From IMG/VR virus record IMGVR_UViG_3300045988_012479: DNA of 5,980 bases; one strand, written 5' to 3'. Positions 1,276 to 5,980 of the stretch are shown here, in pieces. Below the pieces are notes generated by a model. That model was not told the DNA's origin, did no database searches, and was given only the letters and a program-made list of their open reading frames with translations. Position 1 is the first letter of the stretch. Each line of letters begins with the position of its first letter. This DNA comes from a virus. The translations under genes were made by a program, and so were the position numbers.

Positions 1276-1318
1276 TAGCCCAGTACCTATCAAGTAAGTA
1301 CTGGGCTATTTTAGTTTT
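1276..1318 (+). terminator. Rho-independent terminator downstream of the Rep gene
   Basis: An 11-bp perfect inverted repeat, tagcccagtac (1276-1286) paired with gtactgggcta (1298-1308), with an 11-nt loop, is followed directly by ttttagtttt (1309-1318). It lies 11 nt after the VP4 stop. Confidence 0.7.
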
Positions 1319-1489
1319 CAACACTTTCAACACTTTCAACAGGTTTTCAACATAAAAGTGCACAATAAAATCCGTCATAATGACGAACATTCAACAATTC
1401 AACAAGTTATCAACAAAACTTTCAACAACATTTTAAAGCAAAAAAACACAACACAACGTTAAAATTTAAAGATATTCAACATTTCAACA
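1317..1489 (+). repeat. Iteron-like array of direct TTCAACA heptamers (nine perfect copies plus one ATCAACA variant), including a tandem 9-mer cactttcaa x2
   Basis: TTCAACA occurs at 1317, 1326, 1335, 1346, 1390, 1398, 1421, 1475 and 1483; the variant tATCAACA is at 1409. All copies are in the same orientation, within 173 nt of non-coding DNA between the Rep terminator and the promoters. Confidence 0.85.
1373..1385. other. Short palindrome cgtcat-a-atgacg embedded between the iteron clusters
   Basis: A 6-bp inverted repeat with a 1-nt spacer read directly from the sequence; its function is unknown (candidate nick site or protein-binding site). Confidence 0.35.
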
Positions 1490-1559
1490 GAGCCTACTAC
1501 TACTCCTACAACAAGTTATATAATAAAACGGCATAAACGCGCACAGCGCTAAAAAGGAA

Positions 1560-1587
1560 ACCATTTTCGGGAGTTCCCGAAAATGGT
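1560..1587. other. Strong perfect hairpin (13-bp arms accattttcggga / tcccgaaaatggt) in the intergenic region
   Basis: Arms at 1560-1572 and 1575-1587 are exact reverse complements; the realistic stem is 11-12 bp with a 4-6 nt loop. On the minus strand it is followed by tttccttttt; on the plus strand no T-run follows it. GC-rich half-palindromes (cgcgcacagcgct, gagcgctaaagcgc) flank it. Confidence 0.75.
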
Positions 1588-1654
1588 GACCAGCCGAGTT
1601 CCGCATACGCTCCACACGGCAGAGCGCTAAAGCGCCATTCAAACCAAAAAAACA

Positions 1655-1683
1655 TTGACAAGCAGAAAAAAAGATGCTAAAAT
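1655..1683 (+). promoter_or_regulatory. sigma70-type promoter P1: TTGACA - 17 nt - TGc TAAAAT with an upstream A-tract
   Basis: Perfect -35 TTGACA (1655-1660), a 17-nt spacer, -10 TAAAAT (1678-1683) preceded by a TGn extended -10 (1675-1676), and an A-rich UP-like tract aaaccaaaaaaaca (1641-1654). The predicted TSS is near 1690. Confidence 0.6.
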
Positions 1684-1869
1684 AGAATCACGAAGGGGGA
1701 CCGGGAAGCTCCTCAAAACGTCCAGCGAATGCCAAATAGGCGGCTGGCAAAGAAACCGGATAGACCGGAACAACAGTGAACCCAAGTGACCAGAAATGCT
1801 CATAAGGGAGCTGGAGCCTTAAAGCGACCAGAAAGAGAATTACAAAATTATTACAACTATCAAAAAACA

Positions 1870-1898
1870 TTGAAAAGCCTATTGACAGATGGTATAAT
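1870..1898 (+). promoter_or_regulatory. sigma70-type promoter P2: TTGAAA - 17 nt - TGg TATAAT
   Basis: -35 TTGAAA (1870-1875), a 17-nt spacer, a consensus -10 TATAAT (1893-1898) with TG at 1890-1891, and an AT-rich upstream region. The predicted TSS is near 1905, about 20 nt before the first accessory ORF. Confidence 0.65.
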
Positions 1899-1924
1899 AG
1901 AGTCAGAGAAAGGCGGTGCTAAAG

Positions 1925-2110
1925 ATGAGGCACAGATACGAACTGAGAAAATTGAACGCTAACGATAGCATAACCACAGTATTAAGAATCAACGATGAAC
2001 CAAAAAGCGCAAAACGAATAGCAAAAAAATACGCAAACGAACACAAAGGAATCTATTCACTATACAAAATTGAAGAAGTAGAAATGTACTTCACCGAAAA
2101 AGAGAATTGA
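1925..2110 (+). CDS. Hypothetical small protein (61 aa from ATG 1925; the six-frame track starts it at GTG 1916)
   Basis: First ORF downstream of P2; an AAAGG motif lies 11 nt upstream of ATG 1925. The stop TGA 2108-2110 overlaps TTG 2107 of the next ORF. I recognise no family. Basic, K/E-rich. Confidence 0.5.
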   Translation: MRHRYELRKLNANDSITTVLRINDEPKSAKRIAKKYANEHKGIYSLYKIEEVEMYFTEKEN

Positions 2111-3225: not shown

Positions 3226-3616
3226 GCGATACGAGGAAGGGCGAGAGCCCTTCTTTTCAAATTCAGGCGAAAAACTGCGAAGACAGTACATCTGGACAAA
3301 GGACGAAAAAGGGAAAGAAGTGTTGCAGGAAACCGAGCCAATTGACATCCAGCAGGAAATCGAAAGCTATGCGGACGAATGTGACATCAAAAACATTGTT
3401 CGGAAAGCGAGTTTCGACCCGGAATTCCTGAAAAGCTTGTCACAAGGTGCTATGGAAGGCGTAGAAATAGACGTGACCGAATGGCCGCAAAACATCCACG
3501 AGTATCACCAGATGATCGCGACCGCACAAGTAAACGCAATGAAGCTCAAAGAGCTGGAAGAACAAAGCAAAGCACAGAAAGAAGAATCAGCAGAAAGGAG
3601 TGAAACGGCAGAATGA
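3218..3616 (+). CDS. Acidic 132-aa protein, putative internal scaffolding protein (VP3-like), translationally coupled to VP1
   Basis: SD GGGAGGG (3203-3209) lies 8 nt upstream of ATG 3218. Highly acidic (E/D-rich), about 130 aa, and located directly upstream of the major capsid gene with an ATGA stop/start overlap at 3613-3616, as expected for a gokushovirus VP3 scaffold. The assignment rests on size, charge and position only; the track's longer start at 3068 overlaps the previous gene. Confidence 0.6.
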   Translation: MNKRYEEGREPFFSNSGEKLRRQYIWTKDEKGKEVLQETEPIDIQQEIESYADECDIKNIVRKASFDPEFLKSLSQGAMEGVEIDVTEWPQNIHEYHQMIATAQVNAMKLKELEEQSKAQKEESAERSETAE

Positions 3617-5277
3617 ACAGAAACAACGAAAGACACTTTCTGAACGTACCGCAGATGCACACGAGCAGAACGAGATTCAACCGAGACCAGACAATCCTAA
3701 CCACATTCGACAGCGGCAAGCTCATTCCGTTCTTTGTAGACGAAGTGCTGCCGGGCGACACGTTCCAGGTAGACACCAGCGCAATCATCCGCATGACTAC
3801 ACCGAAGTATCCGGTCATGGACGATGCATTCATTGACTTCTACTACTTCTACTGTCCAAACCGAATCCTATGGGACGACTTCAAGAGATTCATGGGAGAA
3901 GCAGACCAAACAGCATGGATGCCAACCAAAACCTACAGCGTGCCGAAAATCAAAATCGAAGCAGGTAAAGCGTCACCAAAAATTCCGGGGCCGAAAGAAA
4001 AAAGCATTCTCGACTACATGGGAGTGCCAACGAAAATCGAAAACGAATTCAAAATAAACGCGCTGCCAGTCCGTGCATATGTCATGATTTGGAATGAATA
4101 TTTCAGAGACCAGAACGTAGAAAATGCAGCAGTACTAAAAACAGACAGCGAAGAAGTCACATACAGCGACAACGAACCAGAAAACGTAGAAAGAACACTT
4201 AGAGAAGCGGTGACGGGTGGTCGCTGTCTTCCCGTAAACCGTTTCCACGACTACTTCTCAAGTTGTTTACCTTATCCGCAGCGCGGACCGGAGGTAACAG
4301 TACCAATGACAGGTAATGCACCAGTATTCGGATACAGCACCATCCAAGACAGCGAAAAATTAACAGATAAAATAATTCTAAACCAACCGTGGCCAACAAA
4401 CAGCACAACGGATTTTTATAACACGGAAAAAGGAGGAAAACTGACAGGAAAAGGCGCACTGAATGGAGGTAGCTACACTGCAGAAGCATTCCTAAAAGCA
4501 GACCTCAGCGCCGTAACCGCAACAACCATCAACGAACTGCGAAACGCAATTGCAGTGCAGCAGTACTACGAAACAATGGCACGAGGCGGAAGCCGATACC
4601 GTGAACAGGTACAGGCACTATGGAATGTAACCATCAGCGACAAAACGGCACAGATTCCGGAATATCTTGGCGGTGGCCGCTATCGCGTCGGAATGAACCA
4701 GATCGTACAGACAAGCGGACAGCAGAGCGAGAACGATACACCTATTGGCGAAACCGGTGCAATGTCAGTAACGCCAATCAACGAAAGTTCCTTCACGAAG
4801 AGCTTTGAAGAACACGGGTTTGTAATTGGTGTGTTGTGCGTGCGCCACAGCAGAACGTACCAGCAGGGACTTGAACGTTTCTGGAGCAGAACCGACAGGC
4901 TGGACTATTATGTACCTCAGTTTGCAAATCTGGGCGAACAGCCTGTAAAGAAAAAAGAAATCATGTTAACCGGCACGAAAACTGATGAAGAAACATTTGG
5001 CTACCAAGAGGCCTGGGCCGATTACAGAATGAAGCCGAACCGAGTGAGCGGCCTCATGAGAAGCAACGCAACAGGCACGTTGGATTTCTGGCACTATGCA
5101 GACAACTACTCAACTACGCCTACACTGTCTCAGGAATGGATGGCAGAAGGCAAAAAAGAAATTGAAAGAACACTCATCGTACAGAATGAAGATCAATTCT
5201 TCGGTGCAATTCGTGTAGCAAACAAGACCACACGTTGCATGCCCTTGTACAGTGTACCGGGCTTGTACAAACTGTAA
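3613..5277 (+). CDS. Major capsid protein VP1 (Microviridae F-like, Gokushovirinae-type)
   Basis: 554 aa. The N-terminal region HFLNVPQMHTSRTRFNRDQTILTTFDSGKLIPFFVDEVLPGDTF ... FYYFYCPNRILWDDFKRFMGE is the characteristic gokushovirus VP1 signature (PGDTF, the FxVPxRxxW..F..F.GE block). The size matches VP1 with its hypervariable insertion loop. SD AAAGGAG at 3593-3599. Confidence 0.96.
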   Translation: MNRNNERHFLNVPQMHTSRTRFNRDQTILTTFDSGKLIPFFVDEVLPGDTFQVDTSAIIRMTTPKYPVMDDAFIDFYYFYCPNRILWDDFKRFMGEADQTAWMPTKTYSVPKIKIEAGKASPKIPGPKEKSILDYMGVPTKIENEFKINALPVRAYVMIWNEYFRDQNVENAAVLKTDSEEVTYSDNEPENVERTLREAVTGGRCLPVNRFHDYFSSCLPYPQRGPEVTVPMTGNAPVFGYSTIQDSEKLTDKIILNQPWPTNSTTDFYNTEKGGKLTGKGALNGGSYTAEAFLKADLSAVTATTINELRNAIAVQQYYETMARGGSRYREQVQALWNVTISDKTAQIPEYLGGGRYRVGMNQIVQTSGQQSENDTPIGETGAMSVTPINESSFTKSFEEHGFVIGVLCVRHSRTYQQGLERFWSRTDRLDYYVPQFANLGEQPVKKKEIMLTGTKTDEETFGYQEAWADYRMKPNRVSGLMRSNATGTLDFWHYADNYSTTPTLSQEWMAEGKKEIERTLIVQNEDQFFGAIRVANKTTRCMPLYSVPGLYKL

Positions 5278-5287
5278 GAAAGGAGGA

Positions 5288-5313
5288 AGGCCGGAGAAAT
5301 CCGGCCTATTTTT
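5288..5313 (+). terminator. Hairpin plus T-run between VP1 and VP2 (intrinsic terminator/attenuator)
   Basis: aggccgga (5288-5295), a GAAA loop, tccggcct (5300-5307), then aTTTTT (5308-5313). It lies 11 nt after the VP1 stop; the strong SD AGGAGG (5281-5286) sits just 5' of the stem and the VP2 ATG is at 5316. Confidence 0.65.
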
Positions 5314-5315
5314 AA

Positions 5316-5980
5316 ATGAGCGTTTTATCAACAATCGGTGGAATAGCAGCAAAAGGCTTACAGTGGGCAGCGGCAAATCCACAATTAGTCACAGGAGCAA
5401 TGACACTGGCGGGAAAAGGTCTACAAGGACTATACGGACAGCAAAGCCAAAGCCAAAGCCAAGGGTACAACCAAAGCCAAAGCCAAGGAGGAGGACAAAG
5501 CAGCAGCAGCAGCCAAGGTGGAACCAATGACCAATTAATCCAAGACTATCTTAAACAGTTCTACAACTGGCAGAGCGGGCAAAACGAATTCCAGAGCAAA
5601 ACAAACCGACAAAACATGTTAATGCAAATGGGTTACAACACCCTAGGCGCAATCCAACAGGGAATCTATAACCAAATTGAACGCAATGCAGCCATGAACT
5701 ACAACAGCGCAGAAGCTCTGAAAAACAGAGAGTTTCAAGAACGCATGTCAAGCACAGCATACCAAAGAGCAGTTGAGGATATGAAAAAAGCCGGAATAAA
5801 TCCTATCCTAGCATACGCACAAGGTGGAGCGAGCACACCGGGAGGCTCAGGAGCAACCATCACAGGCGCAAGCATGGGACTACCGTCCGCAAGTGCACTA
5901 GGCGTGTCAACAATGTCAGGTAACGTACCAAACAGCTACTACAGCCGGTCAGAAAGTCAAAGCCAATGGTATCAGCTCGC
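5316..5980 (+). CDS. Minor capsid / DNA pilot protein VP2 (N-terminal 221 codons; the ORF runs off the window end and continues at bases 56-245)
   Basis: ATG 5316. It has a glycine-rich, hydrophobic N-terminus, an SQ/G low-complexity linker, and the conserved block FQERMSSTAYQRAVEDMKKAGINPILAYAQGG typical of Microviridae VP2/H-like pilot proteins. It follows VP1 directly, as in gokushoviruses. Confidence 0.88.
   Translation, partial: MSVLSTIGGIAAKGLQWAAANPQLVTGAMTLAGKGLQGLYGQQSQSQSQGYNQSQSQGGGQSSSSSQGGTNDQLIQDYLKQFYNWQSGQNEFQSKTNRQNMLMQMGYNTLGAIQQGIYNQIERNAAMNYNSAEALKNREFQERMSSTAYQRAVEDMKKAGINPILAYAQGGASTPGGSGATITGASMGLPSASALGVSTMSGNVPNSYYSRSESQSQWYQL
5442..5517 (+). repeat. Microsatellite-like tract inside VP2: (CAAAGC)3 ... 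(CAAAGC)2 ... GGAGGAGGA ... (CAG/AGC)5
   Basis: Hexanucleotide and trinucleotide tandem repeats read directly from the sequence; they encode SQSQSQGYNQSQSQGGGQSSSSSQGG. Confidence 0.8.

What the first reader, a model, noticed from the sequence alone, without database searches (positions are those of the whole stretch)
1655..1905. Two tandem near-consensus promoters 215 nt apart bracket a GC-rich ORF-free segment: possible small RNA or structured 5' leader
P1 (TTGACA-17-TGcTAAAAT, 1655-1683) is as strong on paper as P2 (1870-1898), but the first start codon downstream with an SD is at 1925. A P1 transcript would therefore carry a leader of roughly 235 nt, or be a separate RNA. Bases 1690-1860 are noticeably GC-richer than the rest of the genome, contain repeated gaccagaaa and ccgg...ccgg elements, and have no plus-strand ORF longer than 16 codons. 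Non-coding RNAs are not described for Microviridae.
Basis: inference. Interest (0 to 1): 0.55.

Follow-up and report, generated by a model that had tools for sequence, protein, structure and literature searches.

The report
Structured RNA leader behind a phage promoter
Between two real-looking promoters of a small gut single-stranded-DNA phage lies a rare ~130-145-base element whose four-hairpin fold is preserved by compensating mutations. It is most likely a structured 5' leader RNA, a kind of element I found no description of for this phage family.

Summary
P1 (1655-1683) and P2 (1870-1898) are the only 11/12 sigma-70-type matches in the 5925-nt circular gokushovirus genome, whereas random sequence gives about 0.07.

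They lie in a 44-nt direct repeat, so they are related copies. Relatives normally carry one or the other: P1-type directly before the M15 peptidase gene, P2-type before a small ORF. The window is a mosaic with both.

The segment after P1 (1690-1816, tail to about 1834) occurs in only about 6 distinct phage genomes. It always sits 6 nt after P1's -10. In three lineages it runs straight into the peptidase ribosome-binding site, with no P2.

Its four-hairpin fold, predicted from the window alone, is confirmed by the one divergent copy (86% identical). Twelve of that copy's 17 substitutions form 6 compensatory pairs (0 of 100,000 permutations). Unpaired bases are more conserved than paired ones.

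It has no ORF, no terminator, no Rfam match and no bacterial copy.

Best reading: a new, narrowly distributed structured 5' leader RNA carried as a promoter-plus-leader module. Its function (mRNA protection or factor binding) is inferred, not shown. All covariation comes from one lineage, and a single-stranded-DNA role is not excluded.

The parts
1655..1683 (+). P1, a 'type A' promoter: -35 TTGACA 1655-1660, 17-nt spacer, TG 1675-1676, -10 TAAAAT 1678-1683.
   Evidence: 11/12, TG; chance 0.07 per genome. The hexamers and spacing are kept while the spacer varies in at least 22 relatives and in all element carriers.
1684..1695 (+). Initial transcribed sequence AGAATCACGAAG; predicted +1 near A1690, 7 nt after the -10.
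   Evidence: There is a constant 6-nt gap between the -10 and the conserved CACGAAGG in all carriers. The same start, AGAATCACGAAAGG, follows a P1-like promoter in L218/L227, where it leads straight to an SD and ATG. The TSS is inferred, not mapped.
1690..1721 (+). Hairpin 1: ACG/CGU (1690-1692 with 1719-1721) and GGGGA/UCCUC (1696-1700 with 1710-1714, one G.U), plus C1702-G1708. It contains an SD-like GGGGGA and an anti-SD-like CUCCUC (1709-1714).
   Evidence: It is invariant in all copies, so there is no covariation for or against it.
1722..1747 (+). Hairpin 2: CCAGC/GCUGG (1722-1726 with 1743-1747), a GAA bulge, UGCC/GGCG (1730-1733 with 1739-1742) and loop AAAUA.
   Evidence: There are three compensatory pairs in L036, CCAGC..GCUGG to CUGGU..ACCAG.
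1756..1768 (+). Hairpin 3: CCGG-AUAGA-CCGG, flanked by A-rich linkers CAAAGAAA (1748-1755) and AACAA (1769-1773).
   Evidence: There is one compensatory pair in L036, CCGG..CCGG to CUGG..CCAG. The linkers are invariant.
1774..1813 (+). Hairpin 4, a composite stem: 1774-1777/1810-1813, 1781-1783/1806-1808, 1786-1789/1800-1803 and 1791-1792/1797-1798. It is capped by a GAAA tetraloop at 1793-1796.
   Evidence: There are two compensatory pairs in L036, including the pair closing the GAAA loop (A-U to U-A). U.G to C-G and G.U to A-U changes occur in the L078-type copies.
1814..1834 (+). 3' tail of the element (GAGCCUUAAAGCGAC + CAGAAA). Similarity to the L078-type copies ends at 1834.
   Evidence: blast and alignment end points. 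No hairpin plus U-tract.
1835..1924 (+). 'Type B' promoter module: TTACAA repeats (1840, 1851), P2 (-35 TTGAAA 1870-1875, TG 1890-1891, -10 TATAAT 1893-1898), predicted +1 near 1905, and SD AAAGGCGGUG 1908-1917.
   Evidence: It is orthologous to the only promoter of MG945162, MG945233, L038 and about 29 other relatives.
1925..2110 (+). First downstream gene, a 61-aa small ORF. It is followed by the M15 peptidase gene at 2116-2508.
   Evidence: In one search the identical contig L174 has Pfam PF08291 on the next gene. Homologues of the small ORF follow type B/C promoters in relatives.

Best explanation
The 250-nt stretch is a mosaic of two alternative promoter modules of a clade of gut gokushoviruses.

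The upstream module is P1 plus a structured RNA element of about 127-145 nt (1690-1816, tail to about 1834). The element begins at P1's predicted transcription start and folds into four hairpins separated by A-rich linkers. It has no ORF and no terminator, so it is transcribed as the 5' leader of the phage's polycistronic mRNA. The downstream module is P2 with a short leader of about 20 nt.

In the window, P1 transcripts would carry the leader and read through P2 into the small ORF, the peptidase gene and the structural genes. P2 transcripts would lack the leader. In the other carriers, P1 plus the leader directly precedes the peptidase gene.

Shown: the promoter matches are far beyond chance and are conserved. 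The element is an accessory insertion relative to most relatives. Its fold, and the sequence of its unpaired bases, are under purifying selection on the plus strand.

Inferred: that it acts as RNA in cis on the P1 mRNA. A hairpin at the very 5' end would protect against 5'-end-dependent decay, and the conserved loops and linkers would be recognised by a host or phage factor. The result would be a differently regulated or longer-lived version of the same mRNA.
For: Promoters. The -35/-10 hexamers and 17-nt spacing are conserved with variable spacers across relatives.

Accessory insertion: MG945162 and MG945233 go from the conserved block (1592-1648) to the P2 module in about 19 nt, where the window has 185 nt. 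Only 5 of the 80 closest IMG/VR relatives carry the element.

Leader position: in L078, L072 and L036 the element lies between P1 and the SD/ATG of the peptidase gene.

Fold: the MFE of the window alone has 35 pairs in 4 hairpins. L036 folds the same way on its own.

Test by L036: 17 substitutions in 133 columns, 14 of them in paired columns, giving 6 compensatory pairs and 1 broken pair. None of 100,000 random placements reached 6; the maximum was 4. In one search, 0 of 500 shuffles matched, and slid-partner controls gave 0-1 compensatory pairs against 6.

Loop conservation: unpaired columns changed in 3 of 63 cases against 14 of 70 for paired columns (Fisher p=0.009). The adjacent promoter spacer shows 13 differences in 57 positions.

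Conservation against flanks: the element is 96-97% identical between genomes whose genes are 81-88% identical.

RNA and plus strand: four helix positions use G.U. There are U.G to C-G and G.U to A-U changes and a GAAA tetraloop. With DNA parameters only hairpins 2 and 3 survive (-15 kcal/mol, z -0.7). The minus strand gives z +0.29.

No terminator follows the element, and there is no ATG ORF longer than 16 codons.
Against: All six compensatory pairs come from one divergent lineage (L036). Hairpin 1 and the inner stem of hairpin 2 never vary, so they are unsupported by covariation.

Folding z-scores are modest, -1.6 to -2.0.

There are no transcript data, and the host is unknown, so the TSS and promoter use are predictions.

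High identity among the L078-type copies could partly reflect recent recombinational spread rather than selection. Between the window and L005 the whole intergenic region is nearly identical, not just the element.

A consistent expression platform was not found. SD sequestration by the CUCCUC of hairpin 1 appears in L078 (probability about 0.47) but not in L036 or the window.

The viral ssDNA strand has the same sequence as the mRNA, so a DNA-level role cannot be excluded by strand.
Confidence: 0.62

Rival explanations
1. A stand-alone or processed small RNA. P1 drives a ~130-145-nt non-coding RNA that is released, by processing in the A-rich tail rather than by termination, and acts in trans. 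It might act as a decoy or sponge for a host RNA-binding or defence protein, or by pairing with host RNAs.
For: The element has its own strong promoter and is inherited with it as a cassette. In the window (P2) and in L078-type genomes (an extended -10-like TGGTAAAAT right after the element) a second promoter-like site follows. Downstream genes might therefore not need P1. Loops and linkers are more conserved than stems, as expected for a factor-binding RNA. No phage gene co-occurs with the element, so any partner would be host-encoded or universal.
Against: No intrinsic terminator follows the element in the window, and none is visible in the downstream sequence of L078 or L036. L036 has no plausible second promoter, so there the RNA must be part of the peptidase mRNA. 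There is no antisense match of 9 nt or more to the rest of the phage genome. No bacterial copy or target was seen, although only one 18-nt pattern was scanned.
Confidence: 0.15
2. A single-stranded-DNA element. The hairpins form in the packaged plus-strand DNA and serve as an accessory origin or priming signal for complementary-strand synthesis. This would be analogous to the phiX174 primosome assembly site, the G4 origin hairpins, or the interchangeable sso cassettes of rolling-circle plasmids.
For: The genome is ssDNA with the same polarity as the mRNA, so the covariation fits DNA hairpins equally well in principle. The element is about 130-145 nt, non-coding, orientation-specific and patchily distributed like a cassette. 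From general knowledge, these are properties of sso elements.
Against: With DNA parameters only hairpins 2 and 3 form, and the fold is not better than shuffles (z -0.7). Several helix positions rely on G.T wobble, and one loop is a GNRA tetraloop. The element is always locked 6 nt behind a promoter -10, which a DNA origin would not need. More than 170 close relatives lack it, yet share other conserved structured blocks (1590-1650, hairpins) that are better origin candidates. The ssoA loop motif TAGCGT/A, recalled from memory, is absent from the sequence.
Confidence: 0.1
3. A ligand-sensing riboswitch. The four-hairpin domain is an aptamer, and alternative pairing switches expression of the downstream genes. 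The candidate switch is AGCUCCUC (1707-1714) pairing either with GGGGGA, with GGGAGCU (1806-1812) or with the downstream SD.
For: It is a 5' leader position with covarying stems and highly conserved junctions and loops. Mutually exclusive pairings exist on paper. Full-leader MFEs pair CUCC with the SD region in the window and in L078.
Against: There is no match to any of 4227 Rfam families even at E<=10. There is no terminator-type platform. SD masking is not consistent across the three contexts. The downstream genes (lysis peptidase, capsid) suggest no metabolite. The family is far too small to judge.
Confidence: 0.07
4. Non-functional recombination scar or mobile insertion. A stretch of foreign DNA was captured by illegitimate recombination or template switching, or a MITE-like element inserted into the promoter, duplicating the -10 region. 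The second promoter is a by-product.
For: The element is flanked in L078-type and L036 genomes by imperfect 16-nt direct repeats of the promoter spacer and -10 (AAAAAAccTGcTAAAAT ... AAAAAAaTGgTAAAAT). It is absent from most relatives. The intergenic region is highly mosaic.
Against: The compensatory substitution pattern and the strong conservation of unpaired bases show selection on the element itself. There are no terminal inverted repeats. It always sits at the same locus, never elsewhere in phage or bacterial sequence. An origin by insertion is compatible with the best explanation; only 'non-functional' is contradicted.
Confidence: 0.05

Closest known systems
5'-terminal stabiliser leaders of bacterial and phage mRNAs (for example the ompA 5' UTR and the ermC and aprE leaders; from general knowledge)
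   Same: A stem-loop begins at or within a few nucleotides of the predicted 5' end of the mRNA. It is non-coding, co-transcribed with the genes it precedes, and needs no terminator.
   Different: Those need only one 5' hairpin, and their loops are not sequence-constrained. Here there are four hairpins, with loops and linkers more conserved than stems. No half-life data exist.
Promoter-proximal cis-acting antitermination RNAs (HK022 putL/putR, Bacillus EAR; from general knowledge)
   Same: A structured RNA of two or more stem-loops is encoded just downstream of a phage or operon promoter. It acts in cis on the transcript or polymerase that made it. The phage has internal terminator-like hairpins downstream: 5288-5307 after VP1 and 1276-1308 after VP4.
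   Different: No sequence or structure similarity was demonstrated, and no Rfam hit of any kind was found. Read-through was not measured. Relatives with the same terminators lack the element.
Riboswitch and protein-binding leader RNAs
   Same: A 5' leader with covarying helices and conserved junctions.
   Different: There is no known family match and no consistent expression platform. No ligand is suggested by the gene context.
Single-strand origins of ssDNA replicons (phiX174 PAS, G4 origin, plasmid ssoA/ssoU)
   Same: A structured, orientation-specific, non-coding cassette of about 130-150 nt in the intergenic region of an ssDNA replicon, patchily distributed.
   Different: It folds poorly with DNA parameters. 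It uses G.U pairs and a GNRA loop. It is locked to a promoter, and it is dispensable in most close relatives.
Phage morons (promoter-cargo-terminator cassettes)
   Same: An accessory cassette with its own promoter, inserted between resident modules and exchanged among related phages.
   Different: The cargo is a non-coding structured RNA, not an ORF. There is no terminator.

Membership tests
Any Rfam 15 family (riboswitches, ribozymes, sRNAs, CRISPR repeats, leaders) | Covariance-model score at or above the family's gathering threshold | tested here: not met
   Whole window at E<=10: nothing in 1684-1840. With 1640-1930 searched alone under laxer filters, the only hits were SAM-II at 16 bits (threshold 44) on the A-rich promoter spacer and a snoRNA at 10 bits.
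tRNA / tmRNA | Cloverleaf or tmRNA detected by ARAGORN | tested here: not met
   0 genes.
Independent bacterial-type sRNA gene | Own promoter | tested here: met
   P1 scores 11/12 with an extended -10, and it is conserved in all carriers. This is a prediction only.
Independent bacterial-type sRNA gene | Intrinsic terminator (or other defined 3' end) after the RNA | tested here: not met
   No terminator-like site on the plus strand between 1690 and 2110. The L078 and L036 downstream sequence shows no hairpin plus U-tract.
Structured cis-regulatory 5' leader RNA (generic kind) | Lies between the transcription start and the first gene's RBS, on the coding strand | tested here: met
   In L078, L072 and L036 the order is P1, element, SD/ATG of the peptidase gene. 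In the window the order is P1, element, P2 module, SD/ATG at 1925. The TSS is predicted, not mapped.
Structured cis-regulatory 5' leader RNA (generic kind) | Secondary structure conserved with compensatory changes | tested here: met
   There are 6 compensatory pairs. 0 of 500 shuffles and 0 of 100,000 permutations matched. Caveat: all come from one lineage, L036.
Riboswitch | Expression platform: a terminator/antiterminator or an SD-sequestering helix conserved across members | tested here: inconclusive
   No terminator. Pairing of CUCCUC with the SD has probability about 0.47 in L078 but is absent in L036 and the window.
Riboswitch | Specific ligand binding | not testable with these tools
   Needs in-line probing, ITC or reporter assays.
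5'-terminal mRNA stabiliser | Stem-loop within a few nt of the 5' end of the transcript | tested here: inconclusive
   Hairpin 1 starts at A1690, 7 nt after the -10. This is met only if the predicted TSS is right.
5'-terminal mRNA stabiliser | Increases mRNA half-life | not testable with these tools
   Needs rifampicin-chase or reporter experiments.
HK022 put-type / EAR-type processive antitermination RNA | Promotes read-through of downstream terminators in cis; family-specific stem-loop architecture | not tested
   No model for put was available. No Rfam family reached E<=10 in the element. Function is not testable here.
ssDNA complementary-strand origin (PAS / G4 ori / sso) | Stable secondary structure as single-stranded DNA | tested here: not met
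   The DNA-parameter MFE is -15.1 kcal/mol with z -0.70. Hairpins 1 and 4 are lost.
ssDNA complementary-strand origin (PAS / G4 ori / sso) | Presence in related replicons that need the function, or replacement by an equivalent cassette at the same place | tested here: inconclusive
   It is absent from more than 170 relatives searched with the model. Those genomes keep other conserved structured blocks, so no replacement cassette is evident at this site.
MITE / IS-derived mobile element | Terminal inverted repeats | tested here: not met
   No inverted repeat spans the element's ends.
MITE / IS-derived mobile element | Copies at multiple unrelated loci | tested here: not met
   All copies sit at the same locus behind P1. 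Pattern scans of IMG/VR, metagenomes and GTDB genomes, plus model searches, gave no other site.
MITE / IS-derived mobile element | Target-site duplication | tested here: inconclusive
   Imperfect ~16-nt direct repeats of the promoter spacer and -10 flank the element in L078-type and L036 genomes. They are too long and too diverged for a typical TSD, and they are absent on the 3' side in the window.

The most novel reading that the evidence does not exclude
This is the first structured regulatory RNA family of the Microviridae. It is a promoter-plus-RNA cassette that spreads among gut gokushoviruses by recombination. Its conserved loops and linkers bind a host factor (RNA polymerase, a ribonuclease, or a defence or RNA-binding protein). 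It would reprogramme transcription read-through or mRNA fate, or act as a decoy, rather than being a passive stabilising hairpin.
Probability: 0.2. Interest if true: 0.7.

Novelty: new variant of a known kind. Interest (0 to 1): 0.5.

Why it matters
Microviruses are among the smallest and most abundant DNA phages of the human gut, and their genomes are thought to be almost entirely protein-coding. My literature searches found no structured RNA element described for them.

A 5' leader under clear structural selection, present in some strains and absent in near-identical ones, would show that even 6-kb ssDNA phages use RNA-level regulation. The closely related genomes with and without it form a natural comparison set for finding out what it does.

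It also shows that the main promoter region of these phages is built from exchangeable modules. That matters for annotation and for synthetic reconstruction of uncultured gokushoviruses.

The practical limits are the very narrow distribution (about 6 genomes) and the unknown host.

Tried and rejected
1. Known RNA family: Rfam on the whole window and on 1640-1930 alone at E<=10 gave nothing. ARAGORN found nothing.

2. Wider family:
- Five exact or degenerate pattern scans of IMG/VR, one of metagenome contigs and one of GTDB genomes.
- Covariance model R1 run over about 250 loci. These included the 80 closest VP4 relatives, 80 relatives of the L036 peptidase, and contigs sharing an identical 40-aa protein.
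- Only the same ~6 genomes plus one new 97% copy (L139) turned up. The bacterial hits were chance matches to the 18-mer.

3. Element as a duplicate of the upstream conserved block: the best local alignment is not better than shuffles, 195 of 500.

4. Element as a decayed copy of the small zinc-ribbon-like ORF that follows the same promoter in L218/L227: not significant, 171 of 1000.

5. Coding potential: only short or SD-less frames. The minus-strand 60-aa frame depends on window-specific flanking sequence.

6. Anti-SD switch: the full-leader MFEs looked suggestive, but base-pair probabilities show no consistent SD masking.

7. Antisense target in the phage genome: no complementary stretch of 9 nt or more.

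8. A phage protein partner that co-occurs with the element: all neighbouring genes are near-universal among relatives.

9. Element-specific conservation between the window and L005: rejected as evidence, because the whole intergenic region is nearly identical in that pair.

10. Resemblance of hairpin 2 to a type I-F CRISPR repeat, and the multiple GGA motifs as a CsrA sponge. Both were considered from memory and dropped: no Rfam CRISPR or CsrB-type hit, a 5-nt insertion in the repeat alignment, and GGA motifs not conserved in L036.

Full report
CONTEXT

The window is a complete circular gokushovirus genome of 5925 nt (Microviridae; bases 1-55 repeat at 5926-5980). All genes are on the plus strand:
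- VP4/Rep, 246-1265.
- A 660-nt intergenic region, 1266-1924.
- A 61-aa ORF, 1925-2110.
- An M15 peptidase, 2116-2508.
- Three small ORFs.
- VP5, VP3 and VP1 (3613-5277), then VP2, which wraps around the origin.

These assignments rest (Pfam on the 100%-identical contig L174) and (GenBank relatives from human and pig faeces).

P1 (TTGACA-17-TAAAAT, TG-extended, 1655-1683) and P2 (TTGAAA-17-TATAAT, TG-extended, 1870-1898) are the two best promoter-like sites in the genome, each 11/12. Random sequences of the same composition give 0.07 such sites on average, and none of 300 had two.

The two sites lie in a 44-nt direct repeat, 77% identical and 215 nt apart. The repeat extends beyond the hexamers into the upstream AAAAAACA and the first transcribed bases AGA(A/G)TCA. 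They are therefore related copies of one promoter type.

The stretch between them is moderately GC-rich, 0.53 against 0.445. It has no ATG ORF longer than 16 codons and no terminator.

WHAT THE RELATIVES SHOW

More than 100 related genomes share a nearly invariant block ending in GCGCTAAAGCGCC (window 1590-1650). After it they carry one promoter module:
- 'Type A' (P1-like, TTGACA...TGnTAnAAT) sits about 25 nt before the peptidase ATG in at least 22 genomes.
- 'Type B' (P2-like, preceded by TTACAA repeats) sits before one of several small ORFs in about 29 genomes.
- There is also a third type.

MG945162 and MG945233 pass from the conserved block to the P2 module in about 19 nt, where the window has 185 nt. 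The window thus carries both modules in tandem.

This is not an assembly artefact. A genome only 92% identical overall (L005) has the same arrangement, as do independent ENA, JGI and Logan contigs.

THE ELEMENT

The sequence after P1 (1684-1834) is found in only about 6 distinct genomes:
- The window type.
- An L078 type (L078, L139, L072, L047), 96-97% identical in the element although the genes are only 81-88% identical.
- L036, 86% identical.

In every carrier the element starts 6 nt after P1's -10. In L078, L072 and L036 it is followed directly by the SD and ATG of the peptidase gene, with no P2 and no small ORF. There it can only be a 5' leader.

In those genomes it is flanked by imperfect ~16-nt direct repeats of the promoter's spacer and -10. 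This suggests it arose as an insertion or recombinational capture in a type A promoter. The window type then arose by joining this module to a type B module near 1834.

L218 and L227 have a P1-like promoter followed by the same first bases, AGAATCACGAAAGG. There those bases are simply the SD of a short leader.

STRUCTURE

Folding the window's 1688-1818 alone gives four hairpins with 35 pairs. L036 alone gives the same architecture, and so does RNAalifold.

I used the window-only structure as the hypothesis and L036 as the test. L036 has 17 substitutions in 133 columns. Fourteen fall in paired columns, and twelve of those form six compensatory pairs:
- Three in hairpin 2.
- One in hairpin 3.
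- Two in hairpin 4, including the pair that closes a GAAA tetraloop.

One pair is broken. None of 100,000 random placements of 17 substitutions gave six compensatory pairs; the maximum was four, and on average 6.8 pairs were broken. The tool's own controls agree: 0 of 500 shuffles, and sliding the partners by 1-3 columns gives 0-1.

Unpaired columns are significantly more conserved than paired ones (3 of 63 against 14 of 70, p=0.009). The neighbouring promoter spacer differs at 13 of 57 positions. This suggests selection on both the fold and the sequence of the loops and linkers, which points to specific recognition by some partner rather than a passive hairpin.

The caveat is depth. All compensatory changes come from one lineage, and hairpin 1 and the inner stem of hairpin 2 are invariant. 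Folding z-scores are only -1.6 to -2.0.

RNA OR DNA?

The packaged strand has the same sense as the mRNA, so strand does not decide. Several points favour RNA:
- Four helix positions use G.U.
- L078-type copies show U.G to C-G and G.U to A-U changes.
- One loop is a GNRA tetraloop.
- With DNA parameters only hairpins 2 and 3 form, and the fold is no better than shuffles.
- The minus strand shows no excess stability.
- The element is locked to a promoter's start site.
- It is dispensable in most close relatives, which keep other conserved structured blocks that are better candidates for replication signals.

FUNCTION

No terminator follows the element, so P1 transcripts continue into the genes. 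I therefore read it as a cis-acting 5' leader.

The tests for a more specific mechanism were negative or inconclusive:
- No Rfam family matched.
- SD masking is not consistent. The CUCCUC of hairpin 1 pairs with the SD in L078 but not in L036 or the window.
- There is no antisense target in the phage genome.
- No phage gene co-occurs with the element.
- No bacterial copy was found.

The most likely mechanism is an inference. A hairpin at the very 5' end protects the polycistronic mRNA, and the conserved loops and A-rich linkers recruit a host factor. The window's phage would then make two versions of the same mRNA, one with the leader (P1) and one without (P2).

A processed trans-acting RNA, a put-like antitermination RNA, a riboswitch and an ssDNA priming signal remain possible, in descending order of my belief.

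COMPARISON AND NOVELTY

The element behaves like known structured 5' leaders but belongs to no described family. I found no report of a structured RNA element in Microviridae, though the searchable library is incomplete. It is a new, very small family of a known kind of element.

Its 'structured leader' reading is supported by covariation. Its 'separate small RNA' reading and the idea of a purposeful promoter pair are not supported.

VERDICT

This is a real and moderately interesting finding. The comparative support is good but thin, and the function is unknown. Interest 0.5.

Noticed in passing
window 1314-1527: This AT-rich block has 9 exact TTCAACA repeats on the plus strand, and the motif occurs nowhere else in the genome. 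The block is in the opposite orientation in L036, L078, L072, L047, L139 and most GenBank relatives, while VP4 and the conserved block 1592-1650 keep their orientation. L005 and MG945447 share the window's orientation. No inverted repeats were seen at the breakpoints. It ends with CAACAAGTTATATAATAAAAC (1509-1529), which from memory resembles the phiX174 plus-strand origin. An inverted origin-like block in an ssDNA phage would deserve its own study.
   Followed up: partly
window 1560-1587: This is a perfect 13-bp palindromic hairpin (ACCATTTTCGGGA gt TCCCGAAAATGGT). It is an insertion of roughly 28 nt relative to MG945162, MG945233 and KT264791. It scores as a terminator only on the minus strand.
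   Followed up: no
window 1590-1650: The block AGCCGAG.TCCGCATACGCT.C.CACGGCAG.GCGCTAAAGCGCC is nearly invariant in more than 100 related genomes, although the surrounding intergenic region is highly mosaic. It contains a GCGC-TAAA-GCGC mini-hairpin. It is a candidate replication or packaging cis element.
   Followed up: no
window 1840-1856 (and type B relatives, e.g. L003 1415-1450): There are TTACAA repeats just upstream of P2, two copies in the window and three in many type B relatives. They may be an operator or UP-like element of the P2 module.
   Followed up: no
L078 3222-3240; L036 ~3640-3675: In L078-type genomes an extended -10-like TGGTAAAAT with no -35 lies immediately after the element. 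L036 has a decayed copy. The element is thus flanked by imperfect 16-nt direct repeats of the promoter spacer and -10.
   Followed up: partly
L078 2560-2750: The intergenic region of L078 has about 190 nt absent from the window. This includes several GC-rich hairpins and a ~40-nt alternating GC tract (gcgcacgcacgcgcgcgcgtagcgcgcacgcatgcgcgcgc), so the region is a hotspot of insertions.
   Followed up: no
L218 ~640-830, L227: A ~60-aa Cys-rich (CxxC...CxxC) small ORF follows a P1-like promoter in two relatives, at the place where the window has the RNA element. This is another example of cargo swapping at this site.
   Followed up: no
window 5288-5307 and 1276-1308: There is a strong terminator-like hairpin plus T-run right after VP1, and a 14-bp hairpin right after VP4. 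If all genes are transcribed from P1/P2, VP2 and VP4 expression would need read-through of the first one.
   Followed up: no
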